From IMG/VR virus record IMGVR_UViG_3300037851_000102, positions 46,389 to 110,388 of that record: a DNA stretch of 64,000 nucleotides; one strand, 5' to 3'. Numbering within the stretch: position 1 is the first letter of the stretch; every line of letters starts with the position of its first letter. The translations under genes were made by a program, and so were the position numbers. Source of the stretch: a virus. This document shows positions 724 to 20,141 of this stretch, piece by piece. Under the pieces are notes generated by a model, which saw nothing but the letters and a program-made list of their open reading frames with translations, was not told the origin of the DNA and did not search any database.

Positions 724-950
724 AAGAGCAAATTCAGGCGATTGCAGAAGCAGTGGCGGCCTCAGAGGGCACACTCGATGTGAAATCAACGATCACAATG
801 ATGCTTGATGTGATGGCGCTTCAAGCATCAAAGATTGAGGATCTTGAAAAAGGCCAACAAAGGATGCGAGAAGCGTTCTCAACAATCTCAAGTGGCGGCA
901 AGATTCCAACACAAATGGGTGGTAGCAATGGCGGCTTCAGCATCGGGTAG
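720..950 (+). CDS. hypothetical coiled-coil protein
   Basis: AAGGAG RBS, ATG 720 overlapping previous stop. Confidence 0.6.
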   Translation: MKEQIQAIAEAVAASEGTLDVKSTITMMLDVMALQASKIEDLEKGQQRMREAFSTISSGGKIPTQMGGSNGGFSIG

Positions 951-1323
951 GTTCGTTAGAAACGAAGAGTCCAAGAGAGTTTTCAAGAAGTGGATGAACC
1001 TAATCGACAATGGGGAGAAATACTACTTTGCCAAAGCTGCGGATCTCTTCAGTGATCTTCCAGCGCGTCATCAATCAGCATTCATAAAATACTTTGCTGA
1101 TAAGGTGAACGTGAAGTTTTGGCTGGACAATTGGCACGATAGTACGCAGTATCGTGATGTATTACGTTCGATTCTGTTTTATTATTCTGGTCGCGAAAAA
1201 GCGAAAGATCCGAATAAGAAAGAGTTCAGAAATGAGCTTATGGAATTCATGAGGAGTGATGAGTTCAAATCTGGCGTAAAACATGAGGCAAAAGAATTTA
1301 AAGAAGGATTGGAAAGCTTATGA
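928..1323 (+). CDS. hypothetical protein with C-terminal FxxALxxL-type tag (FKEGLESL*)
   Basis: ATG 928 in the 835..1323 frame; shared C-terminal motif. Confidence 0.65.
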   Translation: MAASASGRFVRNEESKRVFKKWMNLIDNGEKYYFAKAADLFSDLPARHQSAFIKYFADKVNVKFWLDNWHDSTQYRDVLRSILFYYSGREKAKDPNKKEFRNELMEFMRSDEFKSGVKHEAKEFKEGLESL

Positions 1324-2324
1324 ACACAGAAGTACAACAACAGAAAGCGCCAGTGGCGAAAACTGCATATCAGATGGAGAAGGACATGAAGCACACTCAC
1401 TATCTTGAATGCAAAAAAGAAATCGAAAAACTCAAGGCAAAGACCGATTCGCAACACCGATTGCTTCAATCGATCCACGTTTTGATGAAGAACTATCTTG
1501 CCAAGCAAGAGGCAATCTCAGATGCGCTAATCGGCGCTGGAGTGATCTCTGAACAAGATCTCAACGCGAAGATCGATGCAAATTTGGGTCTTCGAGAGTT
1601 GTTTGGTGATGATGAAATCAAGATTGGTGACGTTGTTTGGGTGAAGTACACGGCAACAGTATCAGGAAGTGATCGCAAGTTTGAAGATGGCAATCTTCCC
1701 GTTCGAGTTGGCGCAAACGCAGTTGTGTTTGAACCAGCACTTGTCGGCAAGAAGGTCGGCATGAAGGGCGTTCATTTTACTGCAACACTAAAATCAGGCG
1801 AGTTCGCAGGCCAAGATATGATCTTTGATATCGAAATCTTGAAGGCAAAAACAAAACTCGCGCTCGCGACAGAAGGAGTTACGAATGGAGAACAATCAGG
1901 AGAACAACAGCAATCTGGATCTCAAGGGGGAGACGAATCTTCTTCTCACGCTGAAGGACAAGGACACGGAGAATCAGGTGCAAGTGGACATAGCACTGTT
2001 TCAGAAGCAGGACTCAGTGTCGTTGGTGAAGGAAGCAACGGAAGCGGTGAAAACGGCGCTGATCCGAATGGGGTTGGTGCAGGAGAGCGAAGTGAAGCTG
2101 GAGACACAGGTTCACACGATAGCGTACAGAGTGAACAATTAAACGAAGGAGCAGATATGAACGGCGAAGAGAAAAAACCAGAGCAGCAAGAACAAGATCT
2201 TACACACCACAAGACAGAAACCACAGATGTTCTTGTGAAAGCTGAACGTCCCGCTGAGGATTTTATGAGCCAACACGACTTGGACAAAGAGACTCACGGT
2301 AAAAAAGAAGAAGAAAAACAATAG
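1320..2324 (+). CDS. coiled coil plus trigger-factor/FKBP-type PPIase-like domain with long low-complexity tail
   Basis: IKIGDVVWVKYTATV...FEPALVGKKVG...AGQDMIFDIEILK matches the trigger-factor FKBP domain pattern. Confidence 0.65.
   Translation: MNTEVQQQKAPVAKTAYQMEKDMKHTHYLECKKEIEKLKAKTDSQHRLLQSIHVLMKNYLAKQEAISDALIGAGVISEQDLNAKIDANLGLRELFGDDEIKIGDVVWVKYTATVSGSDRKFEDGNLPVRVGANAVVFEPALVGKKVGMKGVHFTATLKSGEFAGQDMIFDIEILKAKTKLALATEGVTNGEQSGEQQQSGSQGGDESSSHAEGQGHGESGASGHSTVSEAGLSVVGEGSNGSGENGADPNGVGAGERSEAGDTGSHDSVQSEQLNEGADMNGEEKKPEQQEQDLTHHKTETTDVLVKAERPAEDFMSQHDLDKETHGKKEEEKQ
1885..2142 (+). CDS. hypothetical protein nested out of frame in 1320..2324
   Basis: AGAAGGAG RBS before ATG 1885; globular-looking sequence while the host frame here is G/S/E-rich. 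Confidence 0.6.
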   Translation: MENNQENNSNLDLKGETNLLLTLKDKDTENQVQVDIALFQKQDSVSLVKEATEAVKTALIRMGLVQESEVKLETQVHTIAYRVNN

Positions 2325-2330
2325 TTTACA

Positions 2331-2348
2331 AACTGAGACGTAGAAGTT
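2331..2348. repeat. intergenic copy of 18-bp quasi-palindrome (AACTGAGACGTAGAAGTT)
   Basis: reverse complement matches the 45252 copy at 16/18; 17-bp exact reverse-complement match to 31847-31863. Confidence 0.5.
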
Positions 2349-2351
2349 GAT

Positions 2352-2600
2352 ATGAAGAAGGTTGTCTATAAGTCAGATTTAAAGGGAGTTGAGGCTCGCG
2401 CAAAGGCGGCCAAAAACTCTCTCATCGTGATGGGAAGATCCAAAAAGAAATTGTGGGTCAAGAACTTGGAACTCGAAGGAGTGGAACTCAAGTTCGATCC
2501 CGAAACCGAAATGGTCACGATGAGCTTCCCTTTGCGGCAGGGTGAATTCCTTGCAATCCAAGACGAGCAGGCAATGGCTGAACAGAAGGAGCTTGGATGA
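2352..2600 (+). CDS. hypothetical protein
   Basis: ORF coupled to the ParB-like gene. Confidence 0.55.
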   Translation: MKKVVYKSDLKGVEARAKAAKNSLIVMGRSKKKLWVKNLELEGVELKFDPETEMVTMSFPLRQGEFLAIQDEQAMAEQKELG

Positions 2601-3499
2601 GCAACGTGATTGAGGTCTGCAAAGTAAACTCATACGCAGACATATCGAAACTGAAATTCCATCCTAAAAACCCGCGCACGATCAAGGTTGATCGCCTCGA
2701 GCAATTGAAGGATTCGATCATCAAGAAGGGCTTTTATCAGCCAATTCTTGTTTGGAAGAAGGGCGGGATCGTTCTTGCAGGCAATCACAGACTTCTTGCG
2801 GCTCAAGAGTTGGTTAAGGAAGGTTGGACGTTCAAATCGCCAGAGGGCAAGGAGAACGTGCTTCCTATCGTGATGGAAGATGTGAGCGATGAGGTCGCAG
2901 AGCAGATTCTTTTTGAAACCAACAACACCTATGCTGAATGGGTGGAAGATAAGCTGAGAGATGCGATCCAGAGCGCAGAGCAGAAGGGTCGTTCGATATC
3001 TTCATTTGGATTCACGACGGACTATGTGGACAACCTTTTGGCTTCGGCAATTGACGACGCTGAGAAGGCCACGAAGAAGATCCGTGATTCTATGGATGAA
3101 GAGGGCTCAGATGATCTTGATAAGCTCATGGCTGAAACGGCAGATGAAGAGGAGTTTGAGTCCTTAATTCTGCCAAAATCGGTTTACACCAAGCTCACAG
3201 CACTTTTGGCCGACATATCAGAGGCGTTGGTTCCAGAGTGGCATGAGGGTGATGGTTATAAAGAGGCGGTTCTTGCGCTTTTGCAGGCCGCTGACGAGAC
3301 CGAGATCACGGAGCATATCAAGAGCAGGCTTGCGAGCGAAGAGCTTGCTGACGCGCCTGTTATTGACGTTGAAACGGAATCAGACTCCATTGGGGAGCCT
3401 GAAGAAAACGAAGGAGAAGAAGATATGGCAAAAACTACAAAAGCCAAAACTAAGAAGACGGCTACAAAGAAAAACAAGAAGACAAAAGCAAAAGCATAA
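2597..3499 (+). CDS. ParB/Sulfiredoxin N-terminal domain protein with acidic linker and Lys-rich tail
   Basis: LKFHPKNPR...LKDSIIKKGFYQPILV...VLAGNHRLLAA is the ParBc signature. Confidence 0.85.
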   Translation: MSNVIEVCKVNSYADISKLKFHPKNPRTIKVDRLEQLKDSIIKKGFYQPILVWKKGGIVLAGNHRLLAAQELVKEGWTFKSPEGKENVLPIVMEDVSDEVAEQILFETNNTYAEWVEDKLRDAIQSAEQKGRSISSFGFTTDYVDNLLASAIDDAEKATKKIRDSMDEEGSDDLDKLMAETADEEEFESLILPKSVYTKLTALLADISEALVPEWHEGDGYKEAVLALLQAADETEITEHIKSRLASEELADAPVIDVETESDSIGEPEENEGEEDMAKTTKAKTKKTATKKNKKTKAKA

Positions 3500-3530
3500 T
3501 TTACATTATGCGGCAGACTGTGGGGCAGCT

Positions 3531-3842
3531 ATGGAATCCAAAATAAACGACGATAAGAGAAAACGACTCATGCGAGTGATGTTCGGGCCGATTGAGGTGC
3601 CCGCATGGGTCATTAAACAGGTCTTCGAGAAACTTCCTGAAGATGCGGTCATGATTACGCATATTCACGATCCACAAAGATTGCAATGGGGATGGATTAT
3701 TGCATCGATGGAATTCCCAGTTGTGGAAGAGGGAGCAGTGTTACCGCCAGCGGTTGTATCGGTGGACGGAGTGAAGAAGACGGTTGAAATTACGAGACCA
3801 GTGACAGTGGACTCATTTGAAGACGCATTGAAGGCACTATGA
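3531..3842 (+). CDS. hypothetical protein, C-terminal tag FEDALKAL*
   Basis: ATG 3531 after GGGG; shared motif. Confidence 0.7.
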   Translation: MESKINDDKRKRLMRVMFGPIEVPAWVIKQVFEKLPEDAVMITHIHDPQRLQWGWIIASMEFPVVEEGAVLPPAVVSVDGVKKTVEITRPVTVDSFEDALKAL

Positions 3843-4102
3843 GTGAGAATGAAACTGAAACAATAAAATTTCTGCGCGAGAAACTGGCTGAAGCGCAGGT
3901 TCAAAACGACAAACTTCAAGCGGCACTTGAATCGGCGAAATCTGATATTAAAAACGCTACAAATCTAATTATCGACTTCATTGCGGAGTATTCCACGCCG
4001 AACAATTCACTGAAGACAGAGGACGCATTGGGCGGTCTCAAGAACTTCATAAGAGAGCGGTGTGATAGTGGATCCGAAAAACAAGCTGCGCCAAACGCTT
4101 GA
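3839..4102 (+). CDS. hypothetical coiled-coil protein
   Basis: ATGA-coupled ORF. Confidence 0.6.
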   Translation: MSENETETIKFLREKLAEAQVQNDKLQAALESAKSDIKNATNLIIDFIAEYSTPNNSLKTEDALGGLKNFIRERCDSGSEKQAAPNA

Positions 4103-4337
4103 ACACGCGATAGAGCAAATCAACAGAGATCCGCATCTGGTTCGTTCACACACAGTTGATGCACTTGCAGAGCAAGTTGGGCTCAAACGACGACAAGGGG
4201 AGCCTGACAATGTTCTTTGGGCTCGAATTGAGGGCTCAGGTCGGCTTGATGATTTACGCAAAGAGCTTATGGATAAAATGAATTCGCTTGGCAATGATGA
4301 GGTACGAGACTTTGAATCAGCACTGAAAAACTTGTGA
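4062..4337 (+). CDS. hypothetical protein with baseplate-wedge-like motif, C-terminal tag FESALKNL*
   Basis: VDALAEQVGLKRRQGEPDNVLWARI; shared motif; start could be GTG 4062 or 4068. Confidence 0.65.
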   Translation: MIVDPKNKLRQTLEHAIEQINRDPHLVRSHTVDALAEQVGLKRRQGEPDNVLWARIEGSGRLDDLRKELMDKMNSLGNDEVRDFESALKNL

Positions 4338-4343
4338 GGATGT

Positions 4344-4661
4344 ATGAAGCTGAGGGCGAGAAGCAAATTAGAGGATTCAAAAGAGGTTGAACTTTCAATG
4401 GAATCACTCGGCAAATTGTTGGCGGATGGTCTGAATGGAGTCTTCGAGAAGATCCACACAGATGATTGGAAGAAGTTTTCGTTGAAACTTGAATTCTATG
4501 CCAAAACAGATAGCAACGGCGTGTCAATTGCAAATCTTACATTATCTGAAACGACAAGTGGAGAGAAACCCGCTAACATTAAAAAAGCAGGGAAGCGGGT
4601 TGAGGGCTCCACGGACGGGGCCGCTATTGTTGATTTTCTTGAGGGCTTGAAAAAGCTATGA
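4344..4661 (+). CDS. hypothetical protein, C-terminal tag FLEGLKKL*
   Basis: GAGG RBS; shared motif. Confidence 0.7.
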   Translation: MKLRARSKLEDSKEVELSMESLGKLLADGLNGVFEKIHTDDWKKFSLKLEFYAKTDSNGVSIANLTLSETTSGEKPANIKKAGKRVEGSTDGAAIVDFLEGLKKL

Positions 4662-5062
4662 GTGAATCGGTGAAGCGGCCTTTGTTGATGGTTAAGCCCG
4701 AACTCGTTGCAATGATCGACGATTGGGAGCGCATACGCGGCTCGAAGAGCGATGTAGAGCGCAGAAGACGGGAGCAAGAAGAGATTGCGAAGCTGCCCGT
4801 TTTAGATAGGCTCAAGCGCGAAATTTCAATTGGTGACAGAATAAAATTCGTCACAGCACAGAAGAACCGCAAAGCCGCGCTCGACAAGGAGTATGAGGTC
4901 TTATCAAAGCGGCGATACTGCACGAATCATGATGGTGGAGAGGTTGCGATCCTTTGTGATGATGGGAAGATTCGCGGATACTCGACCAGAAAAGTTGAAG
5001 TTATCAATCCACAAAAACTCAGCGAAATAGAGCAGTTTTCAAACGCATTGGAGCTTTTATGA
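4658..5062 (+). CDS. hypothetical protein (possible SH3-like barrel), C-terminal tag FSNALELL*
   Basis: DRLKREISIGDRIKF pattern; shared motif. Confidence 0.7.
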   Translation: MSESVKRPLLMVKPELVAMIDDWERIRGSKSDVERRRREQEEIAKLPVLDRLKREISIGDRIKFVTAQKNRKAALDKEYEVLSKRRYCTNHDGGEVAILCDDGKIRGYSTRKVEVINPQKLSEIEQFSNALELL

Positions 5063-5406
5063 GCGAAACCATGCGGATGTTCACGCTTTATGTGGTGGAG
5101 AAGGAGACTGGAGAGCGGATTGCGATCCGTCCAGGTCTCATTTTTGAAGAAGAGCCAACAGCGGGAATCGCAAATCGTTTCACGATCAAGGCACTGAACA
5201 CAGAGAAGCGCGAAGTGATTATTGAAGCACACGCATTCAAATCAGAGGTCACAGAATCGTGGGACAAGTTCGTTAAAATGGTCGCAGATGGCGAGTTAAA
5301 GCTCGTTAATTCAGAGAATGTGATCCGCGAGATGCGAGAGGCAAGAGAGCAGGGCAAGAGCGAGCAATCGGCCAAGGATTTTGAGGATGCGCTTAAAAAT
5401 TTATAG
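5059..5406 (+). CDS. hypothetical protein, C-terminal tag FEDALKNL*
   Basis: GGAG RBS, ATGA overlap; shared motif. Confidence 0.7.
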   Translation: MSETMRMFTLYVVEKETGERIAIRPGLIFEEEPTAGIANRFTIKALNTEKREVIIEAHAFKSEVTESWDKFVKMVADGELKLVNSENVIREMREAREQGKSEQSAKDFEDALKNL

Positions 5407-5415
5407 GGGACAGCG

Positions 5416-5892
5416 ATGTTTGATGAGTACAAGACAAGAGTGATGGGCAAGTTTGAAGAGCCAGAGATATCACACAGAGATATTGACAGGCTTGCAGAGT
5501 ATTTCATACGTCGATCATTAAGATACTACGCAGGCGGTGGAGCCAGACACGTTGGCGGTGCGAGAATGCCAATGGAGTTCTACCGAGATCTTGCAAAGCA
5601 GGTGATTGAGCTTGCCTATAAATTTCACGGCGACAAATCGCATTCACTCAAGTCACTCGTTGCAATCATAATCGGGCCCGAAATCGAAAAGATCTTTTCA
5701 CCCGATCCAAGAGAGGCGCGTCCACCTCAAGCAATCCTTGATGAGACCGATGAGAAGTTTTGGAAGATGATGGAAGAGCCAATGCTCACGAAAAAAGACA
5801 TAGAATCCTTTACAGAGAATGATTTTAAGCCAAAGAAGCCAAGGCCAAAGACAGAGATAGAAGAGTTCAACAAGGCACTTAAAAAGCTATGA
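5416..5892 (+). CDS. hypothetical protein, C-terminal tag FNKALKKL*
   Basis: AGGGG RBS; shared motif. Confidence 0.7.
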   Translation: MFDEYKTRVMGKFEEPEISHRDIDRLAEYFIRRSLRYYAGGGARHVGGARMPMEFYRDLAKQVIELAYKFHGDKSHSLKSLVAIIIGPEIEKIFSPDPREARPPQAILDETDEKFWKMMEEPMLTKKDIESFTENDFKPKKPRPKTEIEEFNKALKKL

Positions 5893-6191
5893 GCAAGCTC
5901 CCAAAGACCCGATCAATTTACGATGTCGATAGGCTCACTTCAAGCTCAGAGATAAAGCTCGACGGCAGGACAATCGGCACAATCACAGATATCAGAATCG
6001 AAGACGGCACAGCCCACGTCGAAGCGACAATCACACCGCCAAAGCCCATTGAATCAATCACCTTTGAAGGCACAATCACAGGCTTTGAATCCATTGAAGA
6101 GATCCCAAAACCGAAATCCAAACGCCTCAGACACACACCAAAAGAGAAATCAGAAATTGAAGCATTTGAAGAGGCACTCAAAAACCTATGA
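5889..6191 (+). CDS. hypothetical protein with sheath-C-terminus-like motif, C-terminal tag FEEALKNL*
   Basis: TAHVEATITPPKPIESI resembles this phage's sheath TALINVSITPVQGIDFI; shared motif. Confidence 0.7.
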   Translation: MSKLPKTRSIYDVDRLTSSSEIKLDGRTIGTITDIRIEDGTAHVEATITPPKPIESITFEGTITGFESIEEIPKPKSKRLRHTPKEKSEIEAFEEALKNL

Positions 6192-6514
6192 AGCCAGAAG
6201 GAATCACAATCACACAGTATATGCTTCCCGAAGGCCCAATACACTTTGATACGGCCTCAGCCGAACAGCTCGATAGAATCGGAGAGCTACACGCAATCAG
6301 AAGAGACGACGGAGAGCCAGACGCAAGTTACAGATCCAAGCTATTAAAGGCACTTCATTCAAGAACGTCATACATGACCACAGATGAAGTGAAACAGTTC
6401 TTCGATCCCGACACAGGCAAAGAGTTCGTACAGATAGACCCAAACGAAATTCAAGCCAAAATCCAACACACGCAACAAGTCCAAGACTTTTTGACGGCGC
6501 TCGACAAGCTCTAA
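6188..6514 (+). CDS. hypothetical protein with baseplate-wedge-like motif, C-terminal tag FLTALDKL*
   Basis: FDTASAEQLDRIGELHAIRRDDGEPDASYRSKL; shared motif. Confidence 0.7.
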   Translation: MKPEGITITQYMLPEGPIHFDTASAEQLDRIGELHAIRRDDGEPDASYRSKLLKALHSRTSYMTTDEVKQFFDPDTGKEFVQIDPNEIQAKIQHTQQVQDFLTALDKL

Positions 6515-6615
6515 AACAAACGCTCGACCAACATACTACAATGTAATACATTCAATTCCGTAGTCAGGGAGAATCTAATGTATTCGCCGATACAGACACC
6601 ATTGGAGTAACAACA

Positions 6616-7446
6616 GTGAGTAAATGGAAGCCCAGAAGAGATTTTAAAGCAGTAACAGATAAGCGCACTTCAAAGAAGTCGGCTTCAAAACAATCAGATC
6701 CAACACCACAAGAGTTCCAAAGAGACCTCGAAGATTTAGACGTGCCAGATTTATTTGAAAAGGGCACAAGAATCTTGAAGCGTGACATGGGTGGAGCAGA
6801 CAAGCTCAAGCACGATGGTCACATTCTTATGATGGAGTGGGCGATTAAGTATTCAGACATGATACCGCGCAAATTCTTAATGGAGCGCAGAGGTTATTCA
6901 CACGCACAAGCAGACGTGATTTTAGCGGTCACAGGTTCAACGTCAGAATGGGCGAATGCGCGAGAGCGCGTACTTGATTCAATGAGTGAATCAGTTATCA
7001 AGCGGCACATTGATAAGCTCGTTGAAGTGAACGATCAGCACATAGCGGCCTCAAAGCTCACGATGGCAAAAGCGATTGAGATGCTCACGAAATTGCCCGT
7101 GGATGTGGAATTAGATCCAAAGACAGGCAAATCAAAGAAGCGCACTATGAGATCAATTGATCTTGTGAATTGCGCAAACGCGATTGAGAAGGCGCAATCG
7201 ATCTATCGAAAGGCGATGGGCTTGCCAAACGAAGAGTCAGGTCTTGCGCAGATCTTGGAGAAGGTCGCGCAATTAAACGTGCAACAAAATGTTCAGATCA
7301 ACAACACGGTTGTCCAGCAACAGCCTGAGAAGAGTGAGCAACAGAAGAAGATAGAGGCATTAAGCTATGATGACATTATGGAGTTCGTTGAATTTAGAAG
7401 AGAGCAGAAGAGACTCGCGCAACAGCCAAAGGACACTGGATCTTGA
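6616..7446 (+). CDS. candidate terminase small subunit
   Basis: GGAG RBS plus GTG; helical body, Q/N/V beta-like segment (NVQQNVQINNTVV) then LSYDDIMEF, as in TerS C-termini; not adjacent to TerL. Confidence 0.45.
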   Translation: MSKWKPRRDFKAVTDKRTSKKSASKQSDPTPQEFQRDLEDLDVPDLFEKGTRILKRDMGGADKLKHDGHILMMEWAIKYSDMIPRKFLMERRGYSHAQADVILAVTGSTSEWANARERVLDSMSESVIKRHIDKLVEVNDQHIAASKLTMAKAIEMLTKLPVDVELDPKTGKSKKRTMRSIDLVNCANAIEKAQSIYRKAMGLPNEESGLAQILEKVAQLNVQQNVQINNTVVQQQPEKSEQQKKIEALSYDDIMEFVEFRREQKRLAQQPKDTGS

Positions 7447-7484
7447 GCGATTGTATGCGTATGGGGCAGAGGGTGAGGTTTTAG

Positions 7485-7724
7485 ATGTCACACATGATGG
7501 GTCAACAGAAGGCTCGGATGAGGGAAGAGAACAGGAATTGGCAGGAGAGAGATCGGGAGAACTTGAGCGGGAGAGCTTTGCGTAGGGAGCAGGAGCGCAA
7601 GGTCGCTGCATGGAATAGAGAGCAGGCGCGACTACGATCCGAAGAAGAGATTAGAGAACGGGCGCGGGAGCGAGAGCGATTGGTTTCGATTGAACGGTTC
7701 CAAGACGCGCTGGAGAACTTATGA
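7485..7724 (+). CDS. E/R-rich helical protein, C-terminal tag FQDALENL*
   Basis: GAGG RBS; shared motif. Confidence 0.6.
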   Translation: MSHMMGQQKARMREENRNWQERDRENLSGRALRREQERKVAAWNREQARLRSEEEIRERARERERLVSIERFQDALENL

Positions 7725-7876
7725 AGGATTTAATCAATTTTACGTTCGCGCTTATCGCATTTGTCGCACTATTCCTTGTGCTTCCATTCGTGGTCTATAG
7801 CATCAACAAGTATGTTCACCATGATCGCATCGAACAGATGATTGAATCAAAGGTAAAGGCGGAGTGTTTACGATGA
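7721..7876 (+). CDS. small membrane protein (51 aa)
   Basis: hand-translated MKDLINFTFALIAFVALFLVLPFVVYSINK...; GGAG RBS, ATGA overlap. Confidence 0.6.
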   Translation: MKDLINFTFALIAFVALFLVLPFVVYSINKYVHHDRIEQMIESKVKAECLR

Positions 7877-8066: not shown

Positions 8067-8074
8067 GAGATGAA

Positions 8075-10340: not shown

Positions 10341-10667
10341 ATGGGGCATTTACCAACATTAGAGAGTGACGCAAGCGGGAGAGTGAGAATCACATGGCCT
10401 GATGGACGCAGGTCAGAGGGACATATCACCAAAATGAATGTTCAGATGGGGAGAGGTTCGCTTGGTGAGCATACTCAAACGCTGGACTTCACTTTGACGT
10501 GCTTTGAGCCCATGCTATCCGAAGAAGCCAGCACAATGAAGGCGGCAGCGGATGAAGCGAACAAAAGAGTCAGAGAAAATAAAGCCAAAAAAGAAGGCGT
10601 TAAAAAGATGGAAGAAGACCGTCTCAAGCCAGTCAGAGACTTCATCAAAGGCCTCGAACAGTTTTAG
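10341..10667 (+). CDS. hypothetical protein, C-terminal tag variant FIKGLEQF*
   Basis: GAGG RBS; shared motif. Confidence 0.65.
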   Translation: MGHLPTLESDASGRVRITWPDGRRSEGHITKMNVQMGRGSLGEHTQTLDFTLTCFEPMLSEEASTMKAAADEANKRVRENKAKKEGVKKMEEDRLKPVRDFIKGLEQF

Positions 10668-10727
10668 CGACGAAGAGCGCCAGTATCAGATCAAAAGGTT
10701 CTTAAAAGATTCAAAGGGTGCGAAAGT

Positions 10728-11106: not shown

Positions 11107-11379
11107 ATGGCTCGATCCAAGAAAAAAGAATTACGCGCAGAAAGTTCTCAAGACCTGGCGACACCTGGGCCCGAAATCGCGAACGTGGATTTTTCTAAAC
11201 CGTGGACTTTGGATCGCCAAGCCTATGACAAAGTGGCGTTTGCCGAGCTGGTCATGAAGCTCAAAACTTCTACGTCGAAGCTGGAATATCATCCAGACGG
11301 GAAGGTGACATTCCATTGGAAGGGAATGGCTAAATCCGCAGAATCACAGAGCTTTTCAAAAGCATTGGAGAATTTATGA
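11107..11379 (+). CDS. hypothetical protein, C-terminal tag FSKALENL*
   Basis: GAGGAG RBS; shared motif. Confidence 0.7.
   Translation: MARSKKKELRAESSQDLATPGPEIANVDFSKPWTLDRQAYDKVAFAELVMKLKTSTSKLEYHPDGKVTFHWKGMAKSAESQSFSKALENL
11265..11282. repeat. copy of 18-bp quasi-palindrome (AACTTCTACGTCGAAGCT)
   Basis: 14-bp core CTTCTACGTCGAAG identical at 45254 and 56527. Confidence 0.5.
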
Positions 11380-11915: not shown

Positions 11916-11918
11916 TCG

Positions 11919-12443: not shown

Positions 12444-12452
12444 GGGGGGCAA

Positions 12453-13967: not shown

Positions 13968-14950
13968 TGCCTAAGCTGTTTCTATCCACAACTGGAGCAG
14001 ATGTCGTGATCCCCGAATTGGGGATCTCGATTATTCATCCAGCAACGGATTATGAAATAGACGCGCAATTCTCTGCGGAAGATCTTGCGCTTGCATCGAG
14101 CTTAACGACAGCAATCAATAATGGTTCACTTGTATGGAAGAAGACTGCGGGCGGTTCAGCACAGCCGCCAACAGATTACGATCCAGATTATTTGGAAGCA
14201 GAAGAACTCTCAGGCGGTTCAGGCAATCTGAATCAACAGCTTGTCAAATCTCTTGGGAGTTCAATTCTAAGCCTCAAGGCGCAAGTTCAGGCGACAGTGG
14301 CGGGGACATTGGTTCTCACACGCGGGACTTCGACAGTTTTGATTTTTACAGGCACGACAGCGGGTCAGATCATTCAGCTACCAGGTGCGACGACACTGGA
14401 TAACGGCCATTATTTTGAAGTTTGGAACGTCAGCACAGAATCAATCGTTGTTAAGAATGCAGGCGGCGGGACACTCTTCACGATAGGTCAGACATCGACG
14501 GCGTATATTAAATTGCAAGACAACACGACATCGAATGGGTTGTGGGTGTACTGGCAGGTTTTCGTTTCAGCACTTGCAGCGGGAATTCTAAACTACACGC
14601 TCACTTCGGGCGTGAACTTCATAACAGCATCGACATCGGACACGATCATCACTGGATTTACAGTGACACCACAAGCGGGCTTGTATGCAGCGTGGTTCTC
14701 TTGTGATGTGACGATTGCGACCAACAACAGGCTTATGGACTCGGTTCTTTACATTGGCGGAGTCGAGAACGCCAACACGCGAAGGACAGTCCAAGGGGTC
14801 TCTTCAAACTTTAGAGCAACATCATCAGTCATCGGTCTTGCCAACGTGAACGGATCGCAAGCGGTGGATGTATGGGTGAAGAGTTCGGGCGGTAACATCA
14901 CCGTTGGTCAGCGTTCGCTCGTTCTAATTAGATTGGGGACAAACGTATGA
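13967..14950 (+). CDS. fibre-like virion protein
   Basis: N-terminus paralogous to 12453; FTGTTAGQIIQLPGATTL fibre motif; beta-rich C-terminal domain. Confidence 0.6.
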   Translation: MPKLFLSTTGADVVIPELGISIIHPATDYEIDAQFSAEDLALASSLTTAINNGSLVWKKTAGGSAQPPTDYDPDYLEAEELSGGSGNLNQQLVKSLGSSILSLKAQVQATVAGTLVLTRGTSTVLIFTGTTAGQIIQLPGATTLDNGHYFEVWNVSTESIVVKNAGGGTLFTIGQTSTAYIKLQDNTTSNGLWVYWQVFVSALAAGILNYTLTSGVNFITASTSDTIITGFTVTPQAGLYAAWFSCDVTIATNNRLMDSVLYIGGVENANTRRTVQGVSSNFRATSSVIGLANVNGSQAVDVWVKSSGGNITVGQRSLVLIRLGTNV

Positions 14951-15651
14951 TGGTATTTAATTTTACGAAATCACCGTGCAATCCTGCGCGATTAAAACTT
15001 GAGATCGAAGCATCTTCAATCACAGTGGCACTTGCATCGGTCTCTCTATTGGGTGCAGATGCGTTGACCGTTTCTTTTAAGGCAGATCTTTCTGCGGGCG
15101 AAGAGACGACTCTTAACGGTCTTGTGACCGCACACACGGGCGAAGATCTTCCAGATGATTATGTGGCGACAGTACAGCTTGAAGCACTTCCAGAGCCAGA
15201 GCCCTTTGCAAAGCCGAGCTTTAGAACAAAGCGAAACAAGACGGCAGCGTGGCAGACGATCACCGAAGGTCAGACAGTGGATCTCGATTTTCTTTTGACA
15301 GAAGAGCGATACGTTTCAGGTGGAGAGATCATTTACAAGGGAGCAAAAGAGGGCGACTACGTTAAAGCCTCAGTGATGGACGTATTCAATGGGGGAGTGA
15401 TACCAGCACCATATCGTCCAGCCAACGTCGGCATTTGCGAGAATTGGCCCCTTGTGAATGAGTATATTAACGGCGAGTGGATTGTTCCGAACAACACGAA
15501 TGAAGAGTACAAGAGCAAGATTATCAACACATATCCTTTGAACGCGAAGATCACTCCATATTTGGTTTTGCGAGTGACCTACACAGCATCGGCAGAAGCG
15601 GGTGAGAGACACGTCGCCGTGAACTATCATCTCACGAAAAAATTGTTATGA
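14947..15651 (+). CDS. probable virion structural protein
   Basis: context and beta-rich composition. Confidence 0.5.
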   Translation: MMVFNFTKSPCNPARLKLEIEASSITVALASVSLLGADALTVSFKADLSAGEETTLNGLVTAHTGEDLPDDYVATVQLEALPEPEPFAKPSFRTKRNKTAAWQTITEGQTVDLDFLLTEERYVSGGEIIYKGAKEGDYVKASVMDVFNGGVIPAPYRPANVGICENWPLVNEYINGEWIVPNNTNEEYKSKIINTYPLNAKITPYLVLRVTYTASAEAGERHVAVNYHLTKKLL

Positions 15652-15851
15652 TTATTTGTTGGCGTTTGGTCTCTCGAAACATCGGCGGATTCACAGTGGA
15701 GTTTTGGCCTGAAGATGATGAGAGCCAAAGACGCAAAGAGGATTTTGTTATTTTAGAAGAGCAGAGATTAAAGTTTAGATTCCAAAATGTTTTCAAGGCC
15801 AAAGAGATTCGCTTGAAAAAAGTGGAATCAAGGAAGAGCAGATGGGATTGA
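15648..15851 (+). CDS. hypothetical protein
   Basis: ORF fills gap, overlaps neighbours. Confidence 0.45.
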   Translation: MIICWRLVSRNIGGFTVEFWPEDDESQRRKEDFVILEEQRLKFRFQNVFKAKEIRLKKVESRKSRWD

Positions 15852-16399
15852 AGATTGGTTTTTCTAAATCGCGCAAGAAAGTTAAGTTGTTCAGTGATCT
15901 TATTATTTTTTGGGATCGCGTTCGCCACGGTTCAAATCTTCCGATTTCTCATTGCTATGGTCGTTTCACTTCTGCTTCTTGGGAGCGTGATTTTATTTAT
16001 CAGGCTTCAGGCCACGCGACGAACTTCATGGGCGAGAAGAACTTTGCAAACAGGCATGAGGTGATTGAGGAGTACACGCTTTCAATTCCACGCGATGTCG
16101 TTGAGAGAATTGGACGAGTCTGCGTTGATCGTGAGGGCAAGCCCTATGCAATCAAGCAGACAATTGGCATTGCGATATCAGCAATTATTTGGATCATTAC
16201 GTTTGGCAAAATAGAAATTAAAAATCCATTTGCAGATGGCGACGCTGAAACAAACTGCATTGAAGAGTGGGGGAGAATTCTCGCACAGGAGCTTAATGTA
16301 GAGCCGCCACAGTATTTGGATGGAATTTCTGTAAAGCCATTCCGAGATTGGATTGCAGGCTTGCCGATGGCAAGATTGACAGATGTAAAGTTAGATTGA
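15842..16399 (+). CDS. permuted NlpC/P60 (YiiX/YaeF-like) papain-fold enzyme
   Basis: ISHC...GKPYA...NCIE order with His before Cys. Confidence 0.7.
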   Translation: MGLKIGFSKSRKKVKLFSDLIIFWDRVRHGSNLPISHCYGRFTSASWERDFIYQASGHATNFMGEKNFANRHEVIEEYTLSIPRDVVERIGRVCVDREGKPYAIKQTIGIAISAIIWIITFGKIEIKNPFADGDAETNCIEEWGRILAQELNVEPPQYLDGISVKPFRDWIAGLPMARLTDVKLD

Positions 16400-16414
16400 A
16401 AGTTAGGTTGATAG

Positions 16415-17887
16415 ATGATGAGTTCGGTTGAAGATGAAAGATTGAAGTTCATAGCGTATTCTGCGCTTGATGAAGAGACGCTTCTAAGGACGGATCTCGC
16501 CTATTTTGCGGAAGAGATTCTTAACATGGAGATCTCAGATCACCACAAGTCTTGGTCAAGGCTTGTAGCAAAACACAAAAAACTTGCAATCGAAGCACCT
16601 CGAGATCACGGGAAGAGCTTCATGTTCTCATTCGCTTATGCGATATGGAGAGCGTACTTCAATTGGATTCCAAGCTCGCTTGCGGTCTCTTCAGATTTCA
16701 AATCGATTCCAAGAGTGAGTATTGGTTACATATTCTCGAACACTCAAGATCAGTCCATCAAACTTCTCGAACTCGTAAAGAGAGAGATTGAAGATAATCC
16801 AAAGCTCGAACACCTGATTCCAGCGGACAAAGACGTGTGGTCAAAGACAGAGATCAGGCTATCAAACGGAGCGGCCATTCGAGCAAGAGGTTGGGGTCAA
16901 TCAGTACGGGGAGCCCATCCAGTTTGGATCGTGGCGGATGACTGTTTGAACGATGAAACGATTTATTCTGAACTCACACGAAACAAGCAGATTGATTACT
17001 TCTTCTCAGCGGTGACACCGATGCTTGTGCCAGGTGGACAGTTGATTGTTGTGGGCACTCCATTCCACAGAGAAGATCTTTATCAAAGGCTTTCAGAAAA
17101 CCCTGCGTATCACTTCCACAGAAGCCCTGCGCTTGATGCGGGCGGGGCACCACTATGGCCGACACGTTACACGAAAGAAATGCTCGTACAGCGAAAGCAA
17201 GAGGTTGGTTCGGTTCGATTCTCAAGAGAGTATTTGTGCCTTCCAATTTCTGACGAATCGTCTCTCTTCCCTGAAAAGATTCTCGAACAGTGTTATGAGC
17301 CAGAGTTTGAAATGCCAACACAGGTCGAGCCAGAGTGGAGAAAAGAGCTTCGCATTTACACTGGAGTCGATTTCGCCATGTCTTCCACAGTTGGAGCCGA
17401 TTACACGGTTCTCACAACGATTGGCGTGGACAAGTATCAGAATCGCTGGATTCTGGACATACGTCGTAAAAAGGGTCTTTCATTTGGCGAACAGCTTAGA
17501 GAGATCCAAGATGTGGCAAGACAGTATAAGCCGCTTAAAATTCTGTGCGAGAACAACGGATTTCAAAAGATTTTCTCAGATACACTTGTCAGACACACGG
17601 ATCTTCCAGTTGAGGGCTACACTACGACAGCCAGCAAAAAGAACAGTTTTGAAGAAGGAGTGCCATCTCTTCAGATTTTGTTTGAGAATTGTAAGTTCAA
17701 GATTCCGAGAAGGACTGCAAGATGTCGCGAGAAAACGGATATTCTCATAAACGAATTAAAATGCTTCACATGGGCGGAAGGCAAGCTGCAAGGGCTTGGA
17801 GCGCACGACGACACGGTGATGTCCTTGTGGATAGCAAATCAGGCGATATCTGCCCACGATTTCAGTTTCAGTTTTGTCGGCGATTAA
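16415..17887 (+). CDS. terL: terminase large subunit
   Basis: Walker A APRDHGKS, RG..P..IVADD Walker B, VGTP, nuclease GVDFA and HDDTVMS. Confidence 0.95.
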   Translation: MMSSVEDERLKFIAYSALDEETLLRTDLAYFAEEILNMEISDHHKSWSRLVAKHKKLAIEAPRDHGKSFMFSFAYAIWRAYFNWIPSSLAVSSDFKSIPRVSIGYIFSNTQDQSIKLLELVKREIEDNPKLEHLIPADKDVWSKTEIRLSNGAAIRARGWGQSVRGAHPVWIVADDCLNDETIYSELTRNKQIDYFFSAVTPMLVPGGQLIVVGTPFHREDLYQRLSENPAYHFHRSPALDAGGAPLWPTRYTKEMLVQRKQEVGSVRFSREYLCLPISDESSLFPEKILEQCYEPEFEMPTQVEPEWRKELRIYTGVDFAMSSTVGADYTVLTTIGVDKYQNRWILDIRRKKGLSFGEQLREIQDVARQYKPLKILCENNGFQKIFSDTLVRHTDLPVEGYTTTASKKNSFEEGVPSLQILFENCKFKIPRRTARCREKTDILINELKCFTWAEGKLQGLGAHDDTVMSLWIANQAISAHDFSFSFVGD

Positions 17888-17914
17888 GAGCCGAAGTAAC
17901 CAAGGATAGTCAAT

Positions 17915-18103
17915 ATGTTCGTAATCAAAAGAGTGAATCTCTTTTTGTATCTGCGTGGAATTTCAGAATCAAATATCGAATGGACTCCCAAAATACGAGA
18001 GGCAATGCCATTCAAGACCTATGAGGCGGCTGAGAATTATATCGCCAAGTATGGTCTGGATGATGATGCAGAGGTGATGGTTGTCTTGGCGGAGGCCGCA
18101 TGA
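17915..18103 (+). CDS. hypothetical protein
   Basis: AAGGA RBS. Confidence 0.55.
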   Translation: MFVIKRVNLFLYLRGISESNIEWTPKIREAMPFKTYEAAENYIAKYGLDDDAEVMVVLAEAA

Positions 18104-18333
18104 TTGTTCAAAGTCTTATTTGCGTGATGTTCTTTTTCGTTGGTGGATGCGCTACAGATGGCAGGAAGCAGGCGGCACTGAGAGATAATCCAGGATGTGT
18201 GTGGGACGATGAGAACGAGGATCTTATCTGCCCGCTGCCTTGGGACTCGACAGGGGAGCTTGAGACCTTAAAGCCCGAAGAGATCGAAGAAATGATAAAG
18301 CCCAAGCCAAAGTCTAAGAAGAAGAAAAAGTGA
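18100..18333 (+). CDS. putative lipoprotein
   Basis: hydrophobic N-terminus ending VGG-C (lipobox-like); GGAGG RBS. Confidence 0.55.
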   Translation: MIVQSLICVMFFFVGGCATDGRKQAALRDNPGCVWDDENEDLICPLPWDSTGELETLKPEEIEEMIKPKPKSKKKKK

Positions 18334-18358
18334 TCCGAAGAGGGCGGCAGGAGACACT

Positions 18359-20005
18359 ATGCCGCTTTTCACAGGTGATGCGTACAAGCTGATTCGTAAA
18401 ATTCCAGATGGCAAAATTCATTGCGTGGTCACAAGTCCGCCTTATTGGGGCTTGAGAAACTACGGCAACGATGCACAGATAGGGCTTGAGCCGAGTCCCG
18501 AATTATTCGTTCGCAAGTTTGTTTTACTCTTTAGGGAGATCAGAAGGACTTTGCGAAAGGATGGAACGATTTGGCTTAATATGGGTGATTCGTACTACGG
18601 ATCGGGCAAAGGATATGGTCACAATTGGGAGAACTCCCCAAAGCAGAAGACCAATGAGGGCTCGCTATTCTCTCAAGACATGAGGCCGCCTTCGCTCAAT
18701 AAGCATCCATATTTAAAATCAAAAGATCTGATTGGCATTCCTTGGAGAATCGCATTCGCGCTTCAGGAAGACGGCTGGTATTTGAGATCTGACATCGTGT
18801 GGGCGAAGACAAACTCAATGCCCGAATCAGTCCTTGATCGACCTACGCGCTCGCATGAATACGTTTTTCTTCTTTCAAAGAGTCCCGATTATTATTTCAA
18901 CCACAAGGCCATTCAAGAGGATTGTGTTTCAAACGAGAGAGACAAGGCTCGAATGAAAAACCCTGAAGAGCGACCGAAGGACAAAAAATATCAAAGCATT
19001 GTGGATCCAAAGCTCGCAGGCACAGGCTCGAAGATCGGCAAGTTTAATTCCGTTGGCAATGGAGAGAAGCGAAACAAGAGAGACGTGTGGTCTCTTGCGA
19101 CTTCGCAATTCAAGGGCTCCGCAGAAATCGTTGAATATCGGGCCGTTCGCCGCGATGAAGCCCAAGATGACACGCTATACATAGCGTCACCAAGTTGTTT
19201 AATCTATGGGGGTCTTTTTGACCTTCTTGCCACGGCTCTATGTGATGAACGTGAAGTTGACGATGTGATCCACAGGCTTGACATTGGTTCTCGTCTCTCT
19301 CAAGAGCCAAGGAGCGGTTTCGTTCATATTGACCAGCTCCGCGCTTGGAGCTTTGGTGGACGAAGTTTGGATTTGATTCTTTCTGAATGTTCTGCTTTTG
19401 CCAAGTTCCGTAACAATGGAAGCCGCAAAACGGGCCTCTTTGTTTCGACCAGTCTTTCATGTAAGCCTTTCTCTGAAAGACTCTCTTGCATTGGGCGCAT
19501 TTTAGAGAAACACGGCTTGTCTGAGCGGAAGCTGAACAATCTCTTGAACAATACTTTGGAATCCGATTTTTACGAAGATCAGATGAAAGAAATTCTTTCG
19601 AGCAATTTTGGCAAACATATTTCAGTAAAGACATCGGGCGTGTTTTACAAAAAAACAATTAGAAACGCAAACCACTTCGCGACGATGCCTGAGAAGCTCG
19701 TAGAGCCGTGTATTCTTGCAGGATGTCCGAGAGGGGGAATAGTGCTTGATCCGTTCGCTGGAGCGGCCACGGTTGGCGTAGTGGCTGAGAGGCTTGGTCG
19801 CAAGTTCATCGGCTTCGAGTTGAATCCAGAGTACGCGAAGATCGCGGAGAAGAGGCTTCAAGATGAGCGAGAAAAAGGGTTATTGGGAGCTAAGAAGAGA
19901 CCTCGAGAAGAGGCTGTTCAAACATCTGGACGAGAAGCTGCCGTTGGAATTGAAGATGCAGTTGAAGGGATCGCAAATCAAAGAGATTTTGATGCTCATC
20001 TCTGA
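18359..20005 (+). CDS. N4-cytosine/N6-adenine DNA methyltransferase (beta class) with ~184-aa in-frame insertion
   Basis: VTSPPYW, WLNMGD, DIVWAK, RNKRDVW...FKG, HFATMPEKLVEPCI, VLDPFAG, FIGFELNPEY. Confidence 0.9.
   Translation: MPLFTGDAYKLIRKIPDGKIHCVVTSPPYWGLRNYGNDAQIGLEPSPELFVRKFVLLFREIRRTLRKDGTIWLNMGDSYYGSGKGYGHNWENSPKQKTNEGSLFSQDMRPPSLNKHPYLKSKDLIGIPWRIAFALQEDGWYLRSDIVWAKTNSMPESVLDRPTRSHEYVFLLSKSPDYYFNHKAIQEDCVSNERDKARMKNPEERPKDKKYQSIVDPKLAGTGSKIGKFNSVGNGEKRNKRDVWSLATSQFKGSAEIVEYRAVRRDEAQDDTLYIASPSCLIYGGLFDLLATALCDEREVDDVIHRLDIGSRLSQEPRSGFVHIDQLRAWSFGGRSLDLILSECSAFAKFRNNGSRKTGLFVSTSLSCKPFSERLSCIGRILEKHGLSERKLNNLLNNTLESDFYEDQMKEILSSNFGKHISVKTSGVFYKKTIRNANHFATMPEKLVEPCILAGCPRGGIVLDPFAGAATVGVVAERLGRKFIGFELNPEYAKIAEKRLQDEREKGLLGAKKRPREEAVQTSGREAAVGIEDAVEGIANQRDFDAHL
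19110..19634 (-). CDS. HNH endonuclease with N-terminal zinc fingers
   Basis: CQNC..F...KYCSRDC and CAQC..F...FCGFHC repeats; ALERDENQCQACG...LHVHHI...NNLVTLCIACHLGLH. Confidence 0.9.
   Translation of the reverse strand: MSLLKYVCQNCSKEFLSSDLRKNRIPKYCSRDCSASAQTSRVSLKCAQCKRVFQRKAYMKDWSKQRGPFCGFHCYGTWQKQNIQKESNPNFVHQSSKRGAGQYERNRSLALERDENQCQACGSHRQLHVHHIEPWQEGQKDPHRLNNLVTLCIACHLGLHRGERPDIQRFLRSP
19118..19669 (-). mobile_element. HNH-endonuclease-carrying insertion inside the methyltransferase (boundaries +/- a few codons)
   Basis: splits the normally contiguous FKG-x-HFAT motif; AT-rich promoter-like end; contains antisense HNH ORF. Confidence 0.75.
19642..19670 (-). promoter_or_regulatory. 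putative sigma70-like promoter for the HNH gene (leaderless)
   Basis: minus strand TTGCGT-N17-TAAAAC, 7 nt before ATG, no SD. Confidence 0.35.
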
Positions 20006-20141
20006 GTATGTTTATCAGGATACTAAACTAAAAGAGAAGGTGTCAGCGGCTCAAGATAAAAACTGGTCGAAGATCAGCGCCGTGCTGGACTCAAGCACAG
20101 AAGAACAGGACGAATTTCTCGCCGCGTTAAACAAATTGTAA
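19863..20141 (+). CDS. hypothetical protein, C-terminal tag FLAALNKL*
   Basis: GAGG upstream; overlaps last 143 nt of the MTase; shared motif. Confidence 0.65.

What the first reader, a model, noticed from the sequence alone, without database searches (positions are those of the whole stretch)
928..20141. Thirteen unrelated small proteins share one C-terminal tag, F-x-x-[AG]-L-x-x-[LF]-stop
Seen: final 8 residues are FKEGLESL (928-1323), FEDALKAL (3531-3842), FESALKNL (4062-4337), FLEGLKKL (4344-4661), FSNALELL (4658-5062), FEDALKNL (5059-5406), FNKALKKL (5416-5892), FEEALKNL (5889-6191), FLTALDKL (6188-6514), FQDALENL (7485-7724), FIKGLEQF (10341-10667), FSKALENL (11107-11379) and FLAALNKL (19863-20141). 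F is always at -8, A/G at -5, L at -4 and L/F at -1; I/V/A is usual at -11 and D/E common at -9/-10. The N-terminal parts look unrelated and are often joined to the tag by a charged or Pro linker. Codons vary synonymously and all three stop codons are used, so this is neither a DNA repeat nor just an ATGA-coupling artefact. No structural gene in the window carries it. Inference: an amphipathic terminal helix that needs a free C-terminus and docks a library of variable domains onto one partner, such as a protease/unfoldase (degron or adaptor), a packaging/export apparatus, or a phage hub. The hydrophobic spacing resembles the MIT-binding MIM1 helix, by analogy only. I know of no described phage system with this tag.
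Basis: partly seen in the sequence, partly recalled or inferred. Interest (0 to 1): 0.92.

Follow-up and report, generated by a model that had tools for sequence, protein, structure and literature searches.

The report
Portable C-terminal tag on phage proteins
About one protein in eight of this 110-kb freshwater phage, and of several relatives, ends in the same short helix (F-x-x-x-L-x-x-L/I, then the stop). It behaves like an address label read by one partner that is still unidentified. I found no description of such a system in print.

Summary
All 13 ORFs end in F-x-x-[AG]-L-x-x-[LF]. The whole 110,388-bp virus record has 15 strict and 5 variant cases, against about 0.01 expected. Third codon positions are free, so selection acts on the peptide.

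- **Bodies are unrelated.** One is DUF6744, one is a WGR domain, and most are ORFans.
- **The tag is conserved.** Thirty DUF6744 orthologues (33-85% identity) all keep F(-8), L(-4) and L/I(-1) exactly at the terminus. Two distant homologues lack it.
- **Relatives.** G001, G002 and G004 carry the tag on 8-11 proteins each, with genome-specific flavours (for example A/G versus E/D at -5, p=1e-6). This points to one co-evolving reader.
- **Loss.** G003, which nests among them, has lost the tags, and G005 also lacks them. Both also lack exactly two genes: the tagged WGR protein and an untagged 86-aa gene beside dnaE.

Best reading: a portable docking helix for one hub, with p86 as the best phage candidate. 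CobS/CobT (a MoxR plus zincin-vWA pair) is present in tag-less relatives too. The scan has noted analogous, differently spelled tags in other phages.

The parts
928..1323 (+). Tagged ORF ending FKEGLESL. Orthologues in G002 and G004 also carry the tag, in their own flavour.
3531..3842 (+). Tagged ORF ending FEDALKAL, the first of the cassette that follows the ParB-N-like gene (2597-3499).
4062..4337 (+). Tagged ORF ending FESALKNL.
4344..4661 (+). Tagged ORF ending FLEGLKKL.
4658..5062 (+). Tagged ORF ending FSNALELL.
5059..5406 (+). Tagged ORF ending FEDALKNL.
5416..5892 (+). Tagged ORF ending FNKALKKL. Its body is an ORFan: the only hit among 1.84 billion representatives is itself.
5889..6191 (+). 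Tagged ORF ending FEEALKNL, with a Pro/Lys-rich linker before the tag.
6188..6514 (+). Tagged ORF ending FLTALDKL. The body shows a weak likeness to a piece of baseplate proteins (PHROG E 7e-5).
7485..7724 (+). Tagged ORF ending FQDALENL, with an Arg/Glu-rich helical body.
10341..10667 (+). Tagged ORF ending FIKGLEQF, the only case with F at -1.
11107..11379 (+). Tagged ORF ending FSKALENL.
19863..20141 (+). Tagged ORF ending FLAALNKL, lying between the DNA methyltransferase and the cold-shock/sigma-factor genes.

Best explanation
The octapeptide is a portable short linear motif. It is a two- to three-turn amphipathic helix at the extreme C-terminus, held on a flexible polar linker. Its hydrophobic face is F(-8), position -5, L(-4) and L/I(-1). 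It docks about 20 otherwise unrelated early or middle proteins of this phage onto one common partner, the 'reader'.

**Shown**
- The motif is under peptide-level selection and is tied to the terminus.
- It is conserved across orthologues.
- It is carried on unrelated bodies.
- Its spelling changes in concert across many proteins within each genome.
- It has been lost as a set.

**Inferred**
- That it binds anything at all.

The best phage-encoded candidate is an untagged 84-92-aa protein, p86 (genome 34745-35005, outside the window). Its model is a beta-hairpin plus a 40-residue helix. Its gene is translationally coupled between a thymidylate-kinase-like gene and dnaE. It is the only untagged gene present in every tag-bearing genome and absent from every tag-less relative. 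The tagged WGR-domain protein upstream of the ligase shows the same distribution and is the second candidate.

Several tagged genes flank DNA enzymes (primase, RNase H, ligase, SbcC), and p86 is coupled to dnaE. The most likely use is therefore a 'toolbelt' that recruits accessory and host-takeover proteins to the phage replication or DNA-processing machinery. This would be analogous to the C-terminal clamp-binding tails of T4 gp43, gp33 and gp55.
For: **Enrichment**
- 15 strict plus 5 variant tags are seen against about 0.012 expected.
- The genome has 41 similar tail pairs against a null mean of 4.0.

**Peptide-level selection**
- Third codon positions vary freely and Leu uses two codon families.

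**Bodies are unrelated**
- No BLASTP similarity among bodies.
- One body is an ORFan, one is DUF6744 and one is WGR.

**Conservation and portability**
- 30 DUF6744 orthologues at 33-85% identity all end F-x-x-x-L-x-x-[LI]. The 30-40 residues before the tag vary.
- Two distant DUF6744 proteins lack the tag, and one carries a HARE-HTH domain instead.

**Helix on a linker**
- In the AF2 model the tag is a helix at 279-287 after a loop, with low pLDDT.
- The linker is polar.

**Relatives and concerted flavours**
- Relatives G001, G002 and G004 carry 8-11 tags each.
- Position -5 is A/G/S in 19/20 tags of G000 against 0/9 in G002 (p=1e-6).
- Met at -7 occurs in 7/9 tags of G002.
- F at -8 occurs in 19/20 tags of G000 against 4/11 in G004.
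- L at -4 occurs in 48/48 tags.

**Loss as a unit**
- G003 shares 66 genes with G000 and nests inside the tag-bearing clade (100% support), yet has no tags.
- By tblastn, only the WGR-tag gene and p86 are present in G001, G002 and G004 and absent from G003, G005 and G006.
- Both genes are cleanly missing in situ in G003 and G005.

**Published principle**
- In T4, the hydrophobic-acidic C-termini of gp43, gp55 and gp33 are interchangeable, sit on divergent flexible linkers and bind one clamp (PMC2988020).
Against:
- The link between p86 and the tags rests on four tag-bearing and three tag-less genomes. Two are fragments and one is very distant. That amounts to about two loss events.
- p86 has no annotation and no structural match.
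- A host-encoded reader would leave the same pattern if G003 and G005 changed host.
- No sliding clamp or other classical hub was found in the phage, and DnaE itself lacks the tag.
- Ten adjacent ORFan cassette genes are hard to picture as replisome parts.
- Tagged genes are enriched for 4-nt stop/start overlaps (8/15 vs 20/145). A role at the translation level is therefore not fully excluded.
Confidence: 0.6

Rival explanations
1. The tag is a degradation signal, or a tether to a protease adaptor. A host AAA+ protease (ClpXP, ClpAP, Lon or FtsH) or an adaptor reads the free hydrophobic C-terminus. Early proteins are then removed on schedule, or tagged proteins deliver their bound host targets for degradation.
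For: - The tag sits exactly at the terminus in 30/30 orthologues.
- The carriers are small early ORFans in sigma-70-type operons.
- G001 tags end in basic-basic-Ile. From my own knowledge this recalls the MuA-type ClpX class.
- Variable domain plus linker plus short tethering peptide is the design of SspB-type adaptors (own knowledge).
Against: - The conserved residues lie 4 and 8 positions from the end on one helical face, whereas positions -2 and -3 vary freely. That fits groove docking better than pore recognition of the last 3 residues.
- About half of the G000 tags have E/D at -3.
- DUF6744 and the WGR protein are conserved proteins that look functional, not timers.
- The host is unknown, so nothing could be tested.
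Confidence: 0.15
2. The tag is the client signal of the phage's own MoxR-type AAA+ ATPase ('CobS') and zincin-peptidase-vWA protein ('CobT'). The MIDAS site captures the tail or its carboxylate. The motor remodels the client and the peptidase may clip it.
For: - The pair is encoded at genome 10388-13357, minus strand.
- HExxH plus E-D and the MIDAS D-x-S-x-S are conserved in 52 homologues.
- This phage pair is described in PMC7824862, and peptide capture by vWA domains is the general model in PMC7159879.
- The DUF6744-tag gene is syntenic with the pair.
- Pseudomonas phage nickie and Rhizobium phage RHEph10 also have the pair and their own C-terminal tags.
Against: - The pair is equally present and conserved in the tag-less relatives G003 (44-46% identity), G005 and G006.
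- It is also present in SSU5, ICP2 and CRP-810, where no shared tail was found.
- The pair is therefore not sufficient for tags and does not depend on them.
- vWA sites are thought to bind extended acidic peptides, not amphipathic helices.
Confidence: 0.1
3. The tag is a capsid-targeting or cargo-loading peptide. It would load the tagged proteins into the procapsid for injection, like encapsulin cargo-loading peptides, microcompartment encapsulation peptides, the HK97 protease tail or the T4 capsid-targeting sequence.
For: - A terminal amphipathic helix on a linker, carried by unrelated cargo, is exactly the design of those systems (own knowledge).
- A reader with hundreds of copies would suit 20 competing clients.
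Against: - The protease, the putative scaffold and all head genes lack the tag.
- Tagged genes lie in replication/recombination operons behind sigma-70-like promoters.
- Tag-less G003 keeps a capsid protein 78% identical, a protease 69% identical and the putative scaffold (265 aa) 64% identical to G000's.
Confidence: 0.05
4. There is no common reader. The tails would be a remnant of common ancestry in a fast-diverging paralogue family. Alternatively they would be a by-product of translation: stop/start coupling or a nascent-peptide effect at termination.
For: - Seven tagged genes are adjacent.
- Tagged genes are enriched for 4-nt overlaps with the next gene (8/15 vs 20/145).
Against: - Bodies range from 61 to 289 aa and include unrelated families (DUF6744, WGR) whose distant members lack the tag.
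- Tags at operon ends are just as conserved.
- ATGA coupling needs only a final codon ending in A. It does not explain F(-8) or L(-4).
- Variants with 1-2 extra residues keep the motif.
- Concerted genome-specific flavours are not expected from ancestry alone.
Confidence: 0.04

Closest known systems
Sliding-clamp-binding C-terminal tails of phage T4 gp43, gp55 and gp33 (and PIP-box or clamp-binding motifs generally)
   Same: A short hydrophobic/acidic motif sits at the extreme C-terminus of unrelated proteins. It is interchangeable, is joined by a divergent flexible linker, and all copies are read by one hub (PMC2988020).
   Different: - About 20 carriers per genome here, against three in T4.
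- The spelling is different and helical (F-x-x-x-L-x-x-L/I).
- No clamp gene was found in the phage.
- The polymerase (DnaE) does not carry the tag.
- Most carriers are ORFans, not replication or transcription factors.
Encapsulation peptides of bacterial microcompartments and cargo-loading peptides of encapsulins (also the HK97 protease tail and the T4 capsid-targeting sequence)
   Same: A terminal amphipathic helix on a flexible linker is carried by unrelated proteins as an address label. The hydrophobic spacing is similar (own knowledge).
   Different: The carriers are early or middle genes. Head proteins lack the tag. The tag system is lost in a relative that keeps the capsid genes.
MoxR AAA+ / (zincin-)vWA chaperone pairs of phages ('CobS/CobT'; Iyer et al. 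2021, PMC7824862; Kaur et al. 2020, PMC7159879)
   Same: The pair is encoded here with intact motifs. The vWA domain is proposed to capture a substrate peptide.
   Different: The pair's distribution does not follow the tags, since it is present in tag-less relatives. No clients are known in any phage.
MIM1 helix of ESCRT-III proteins bound by MIT domains
   Same: A C-terminal amphipathic helix with hydrophobic residues at i, i+4 and i+7.
   Different: No MIT domain or Vps4-like ATPase was found. This is an analogy of spacing only.
Shared C-terminal tags noted by this scan in other phages (e1-173140, e1-4772764, e1-831089, e1-6034486)
   Same: I re-found the tag of Pseudomonas phage nickie ([FYM]-G-x-[WF]-[AGS], 9-10 proteins).
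   Different: The spelling is different, the tag here is helical, and the phage clade is different. Here a tag-less nested relative points to two co-lost genes.

Membership tests
T4-type clamp-binding tails / PIP-like motifs | The same short motif at the extreme C-terminus of several unrelated proteins, on a variable linker | tested here: met
   Pfam and PHROG scans of about 70 proteins found no clamp or clamp loader. The 223-, 278- and 347-aa unknowns gave no clamp signal. The proteome was not scanned exhaustively, and a host clamp remains possible.
T4-type clamp-binding tails / PIP-like motifs | The replicative polymerase carries the motif | tested here: not met
   The DnaE C-terminus has no tag in G000 or G001.
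MoxR / vWA client peptide | A MoxR ATPase and a vWA protein with intact MIDAS are encoded | tested here: met
MoxR / vWA client peptide | The tag and the pair occur together across genomes | tested here: not met
   The pair is present in tag-less G003, G005, G006, SSU5, ICP2 and CRP-810.
MoxR / vWA client peptide | Physical capture of the tail by the vWA or peptidase domain | not testable with these tools
C-terminal degron (ssrA-like or MuA-like) | Recognition determinants lie in the last 3-5 residues with a free carboxylate | tested here: inconclusive
   The terminal position is strict. However, the conserved residues are at -8, -4 and -1, and positions -2 and -3 vary.
C-terminal degron (ssrA-like or MuA-like) | The tag confers instability | not testable with these tools
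   This needs an experiment in the unknown host.
Capsid or shell cargo-targeting peptide | A terminal amphipathic helix on a linker, carried by unrelated cargo | tested here: met
Capsid or shell cargo-targeting peptide | Known internal head proteins (protease, scaffold) share the signal, and the signal follows the shell gene | tested here: not met
MIT-MIM1 | A MIT-domain reader is present | tested here: not met
   None was found among the proteins scanned with Pfam. The scan was not exhaustive.
Paralogous gene family | Detectable similarity outside the tail | tested here: not met

The most novel reading that the evidence does not exclude
A self-contained viral tag-and-reader network. A dedicated small phage protein reads a portable C-terminal helix carried by about a tenth of the proteome. 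New genes join the network by acquiring eight residues. Tag and reader co-evolve genome by genome, and the whole network can be discarded at once, as in G003.
Probability: 0.25. Interest if true: 0.88.

Novelty: new variant of a known kind. Interest (0 to 1): 0.78.

Why it matters
- **Handle on phage 'dark matter'.** If one reader binds about 20 ORFans, a single pull-down with an 8-12-residue peptide would assign a shared context to a tenth of a phage's unknown genes. It would also give a portable, minimal targeting tag.
- **Evolution.** It would show how phages wire newly acquired genes into an existing machine by adding a few codons.
- **Generality.** The scan has noted analogous tags with other spellings in unrelated phages, and I re-found one of them in Pseudomonas phage nickie. 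The principle may therefore be general and overlooked.
- **Testable lead.** This clade has a nested relative that lost the tags together with only two genes.

Tried and rejected
The long Logan/ENA/JGI contigs of further relatives could not be fetched.
The planned test was CobT-like protein plus DUF6744 tail plus Mg/Zn, and no binding test of any kind was run.

**Searches for relatives that gave little or nothing**
- The TerL scan found only 34%-identical relatives without tags.
- The DUF6744 protein has no match in isolated phages.
- P0019 and P0026 are not in IMG/VR.
- The metagenome scan gave only short contigs.
- p86 is not in genome contigs, and the IMG/VR scan for it returned no new genome.

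**Clamp hypothesis**
- The 223-aa conserved protein is not a clamp. Its model is weak, with only a faint PD-(D/E)XK-like likeness.
- The 278- and 347-aa unknowns gave no PDB sequence hits.

**Other negative results**
- DUF6744 and p86 models have no Foldseek match in the PDB.
- The Rad51/BRC-type FxxA idea was dropped, because -5 is E, D, M or L in relatives.
- An integron-like DNA recombination site was dropped, because the third codon positions vary.
- There is no body homology between tagged proteins of G000 and those of nickie or RHEph10. 'Same body, swapped tag' could therefore not be shown across those lineages.
- Literature searches for DUF6744 and for shared C-terminal motifs on phage early proteins found nothing relevant.
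- Sequencing runs: no RNA holder is listed. The only full holder is a freshwater metagenome that may be the source.

Full report
**1. The observation**

The window is bases 46389-110388 of a single-contig virus record of 110,388 bp. The only run that holds it in full is a freshwater metagenome.

The strict regex hits 13 of 202 plus-strand ORFs and 0 of 290 minus-strand ORFs in the window. In the 24 tag nucleotides, codon positions 1 and 2 are conserved while third positions carry almost no information. Leu is written with both TTR and CTN, and TGA, TAG and TAA all occur. Selection therefore acts on the peptide.

Over the whole genome there are 15 strict cases and 5 variants:
- L at -8.
- S or D at -5.
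- One or two extra residues (+R, +GE).

About 0.012 are expected by composition. Internal occurrences are at chance (3 against 2.3). The bodies are 61-289 aa and share no similarity. One is an ORFan among 1.84 billion representatives.

**2. What the carriers are**

Most carriers have no family. Two do:
- A 289-aa DUF6744 protein (genome 15326-16195, minus strand).
- A 148-aa WGR-domain protein just upstream of the ATP-dependent ligase (18321-18767, minus strand).

Other tagged genes directly follow primase, RNase H and SbcC. Ten more lie between the ParB-N-like gene (2597-3499) and the tail-fibre-like genes (from 11919). Seven of these, at 4062-6514, are strictly adjacent.

The phage is a roughly 110-kb myovirus. 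Its annotated genes include:
- Replication and repair: DnaE, DnaB, DnaG, UvsW, a gp32-like SSB, RecA, SbcCD, a RecU-like protein and ligase.
- Transcription: two sigma factors.
- Others: an HDAC-like enzyme and a 'CobS/CobT' pair.

The 'CobT' protein carries a conserved zincin HExxH motif, an acidic linker and a vWA domain with intact MIDAS. This matches the MoxR plus metallopeptidase-vWA pair described for phages in PMC7824862.

**3. Conservation elsewhere**

Thirty DUF6744 orthologues (33-85% identity, many on 93-119-kb contigs) all end in F-x-x-x-L-x-x-[LI] exactly at the terminus. The preceding 30-40 residues are free to vary. Two distant DUF6744 proteins lack the tail. The tag is therefore an add-on specific to this clade.

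An AF2 model of the family (pLDDT 88.5) places the tag as a separate short helix (279-287). It follows a 5-residue loop and has low local confidence, as expected for a tethered docking element. Upstream linkers of tagged proteins are more polar than those of other proteins.

**4. Relatives**

I fetched six related IMG/VR records whole or as far as they go.

| Genome | Status | Tags |
|---|---|---|
| G001 | 50-kb fragment | 8 tagged proteins |
| G002 | 108 kb, complete | 9 |
| G004 | 115 kb, complete | 11 |
| G003 | 104 kb, complete | no enrichment |
| G005 | 41-kb fragment | no enrichment |
| G006 | 109 kb, distant | no enrichment |

L(-4) is invariant (48/48). The other positions have genome-specific flavours:
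- Position -5 is A/G/S in 19/20 tags of G000, 0/9 in G002 (p=1e-6) and 1/11 in G004.
- Met at -7 occurs in 7/9 tags of G002.
- F at -8 occurs in 19/20 tags of G000 against 4/11 in G004.
- The last residue is mostly L in G000 and mostly I in G002.

Many unrelated proteins changing the same way within a genome is what one co-evolving reader predicts.

**5. A natural deletion experiment**

A tree of five replication proteins (2,264 columns) places tag-less G003 inside the clade of G000, G001 and G002 (100% support). Tag-bearing G004 lies outside that clade. G003 therefore lost the tags.

G003 shares 66 genes with G000, at identities equal to or higher than G004's. A tblastn phyletic profile finds only two G000 genes that are present in G001, G002 and G004 and absent from G003, G005 and G006:
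- The tagged WGR protein.
- An untagged 86-aa ORF, p86 (genome 34745-35005).

The synteny is clean:
- **p86.** In tag-bearing genomes the order is tmk-like, p86, dnaE, with overlapping stops and starts. In G003 the tmk-like gene abuts dnaE, and in G005 an unrelated ORF sits there.
- **WGR.** In tag-bearing genomes the order is p223, WGR, ligase. In G003 and G005, p223 abuts the ligase.

The p86 model is a beta-hairpin followed by a 40-residue helix (pLDDT 84 from four sequences). It has no annotation and no structural match. A sigma-70-like promoter precedes the tmk-p86-dnaE operon.

**6. Weighing the readers**

- **CobS/CobT.** The pair is present and similarly conserved in the tag-less relatives. 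It is also present in SSU5, ICP2 and CRP-810, where I found no shared tails. Nickie and RHEph10, which also have the pair, carry tags of a different spelling. The pair is thus neither sufficient for tags nor dependent on them.
- **Capsid.** The capsid protein is 78% identical in tag-less G003, and the head proteins are untagged. This argues against packaging.
- **Host.** A host reader cannot be excluded, because the host is unknown.
- **p86 and WGR.** These are the only phage genes whose distribution follows the tags. This rests on few genomes and on no binding data.

**7. Comparison with known systems, and verdict**

The principle of one C-terminal motif on unrelated proteins read by one hub is established for T4 gp43, gp55 and gp33 with the gp45 clamp (PMC2988020). 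From my own knowledge it also holds for PIP boxes, SSB tails, encapsulation peptides and degrons.

The following features are new here:
- The scale, about 12% of genes.
- The helical F-x-x-x-L-x-x-L/I spelling.
- The tag's portability onto ORFans.
- The concerted genome-specific flavours.
- The loss as a unit together with two genes.

I found no description in the searched literature. Notes from this scan report analogous tags with other spellings in other phages. I verified one of them, in phage nickie. I rate this a new variant of a known kind.

Noticed in passing
window 19110-19658 (minus strand), inside the methyltransferase ORF 18359-20005: A 182-aa HNH-type zinc-finger nuclease ORF lies antisense within the N6/N4 DNA methyltransferase. 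The methyltransferase's Pfam match spans residues 20-498 for a 221-position profile, so the enzyme carries a roughly 550-nt insert that keeps its own frame open.
   Followed up: no
genome 34070-34180 and 38580-38690 (upstream of the window): An identical stretch of about 40 nt precedes the tmk-like gene and the 154-aa gene. It reads as a sigma-70-type promoter (TGACA-N18-TATAAT). It makes ORF listing give both genes the same spurious 9-residue N-terminus.
   Followed up: partly
genome 20677, 26134, 27571, 31796 and, in reverse, 37986, 57655 (window 11267), 91642 (window 45254), 102915 (window 56527): A roughly 16-nt near-palindrome (ACTTCGACGTAGAAGT) occurs eight times in the genome. Its function is unknown. 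It could be a terminator stem, an operator or a nuclease site.
   Followed up: no
genome 12191, 13363, 16200, 16851, 19612, 20866 (minus-strand genes, upstream of the window): A stereotyped leader (GGCTAACAAGGAGA) lies in front of CobT, CobS, the DUF6744-tag gene, the 182-aa tagged gene and others. This suggests co-regulated translation or RNA processing of that module.
   Followed up: no
window 26405-29527: A 1040-aa protein directly after the portal combines NUDIX, DUF5661 and HEAT repeats. It is probably an internal virion protein with an enzymatic head.
   Followed up: no
Pseudomonas phage nickie NC_042091.1 (L020-L025) and Rhizobium phage RHEph10 NC_034248.1 (L026-L031): Nickie has 9-10 proteins ending [FYM]-G-x-[WF]-[AGS] (17 similar tail pairs against a null of 2.9). 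RHEph10 has three ending P-N/M-F-G-R-F. As in G000, the genes just after primase and SbcC are tagged in nickie.
   Followed up: partly
G005 (L102) 23896-25005: In this tag-less relative the DUF6744 orthologue ends differently. It has a long acidic PEDA-repeat linker tipped by an aromatic/hydrophobic pentapeptide (F-D-W-L-M), as if a different tail had replaced the tag.
   Followed up: no
genome 18769-19440 (minus strand) and its orthologues in G001, G002, G003 and G005: The 223-aa conserved unknown protein keeps its own C-terminal motif, D-[DE]-L-x-x-I-L-G-[EDK], in both tag-bearing and tag-less genomes. This is a second, family-specific terminal motif.
   Followed up: no
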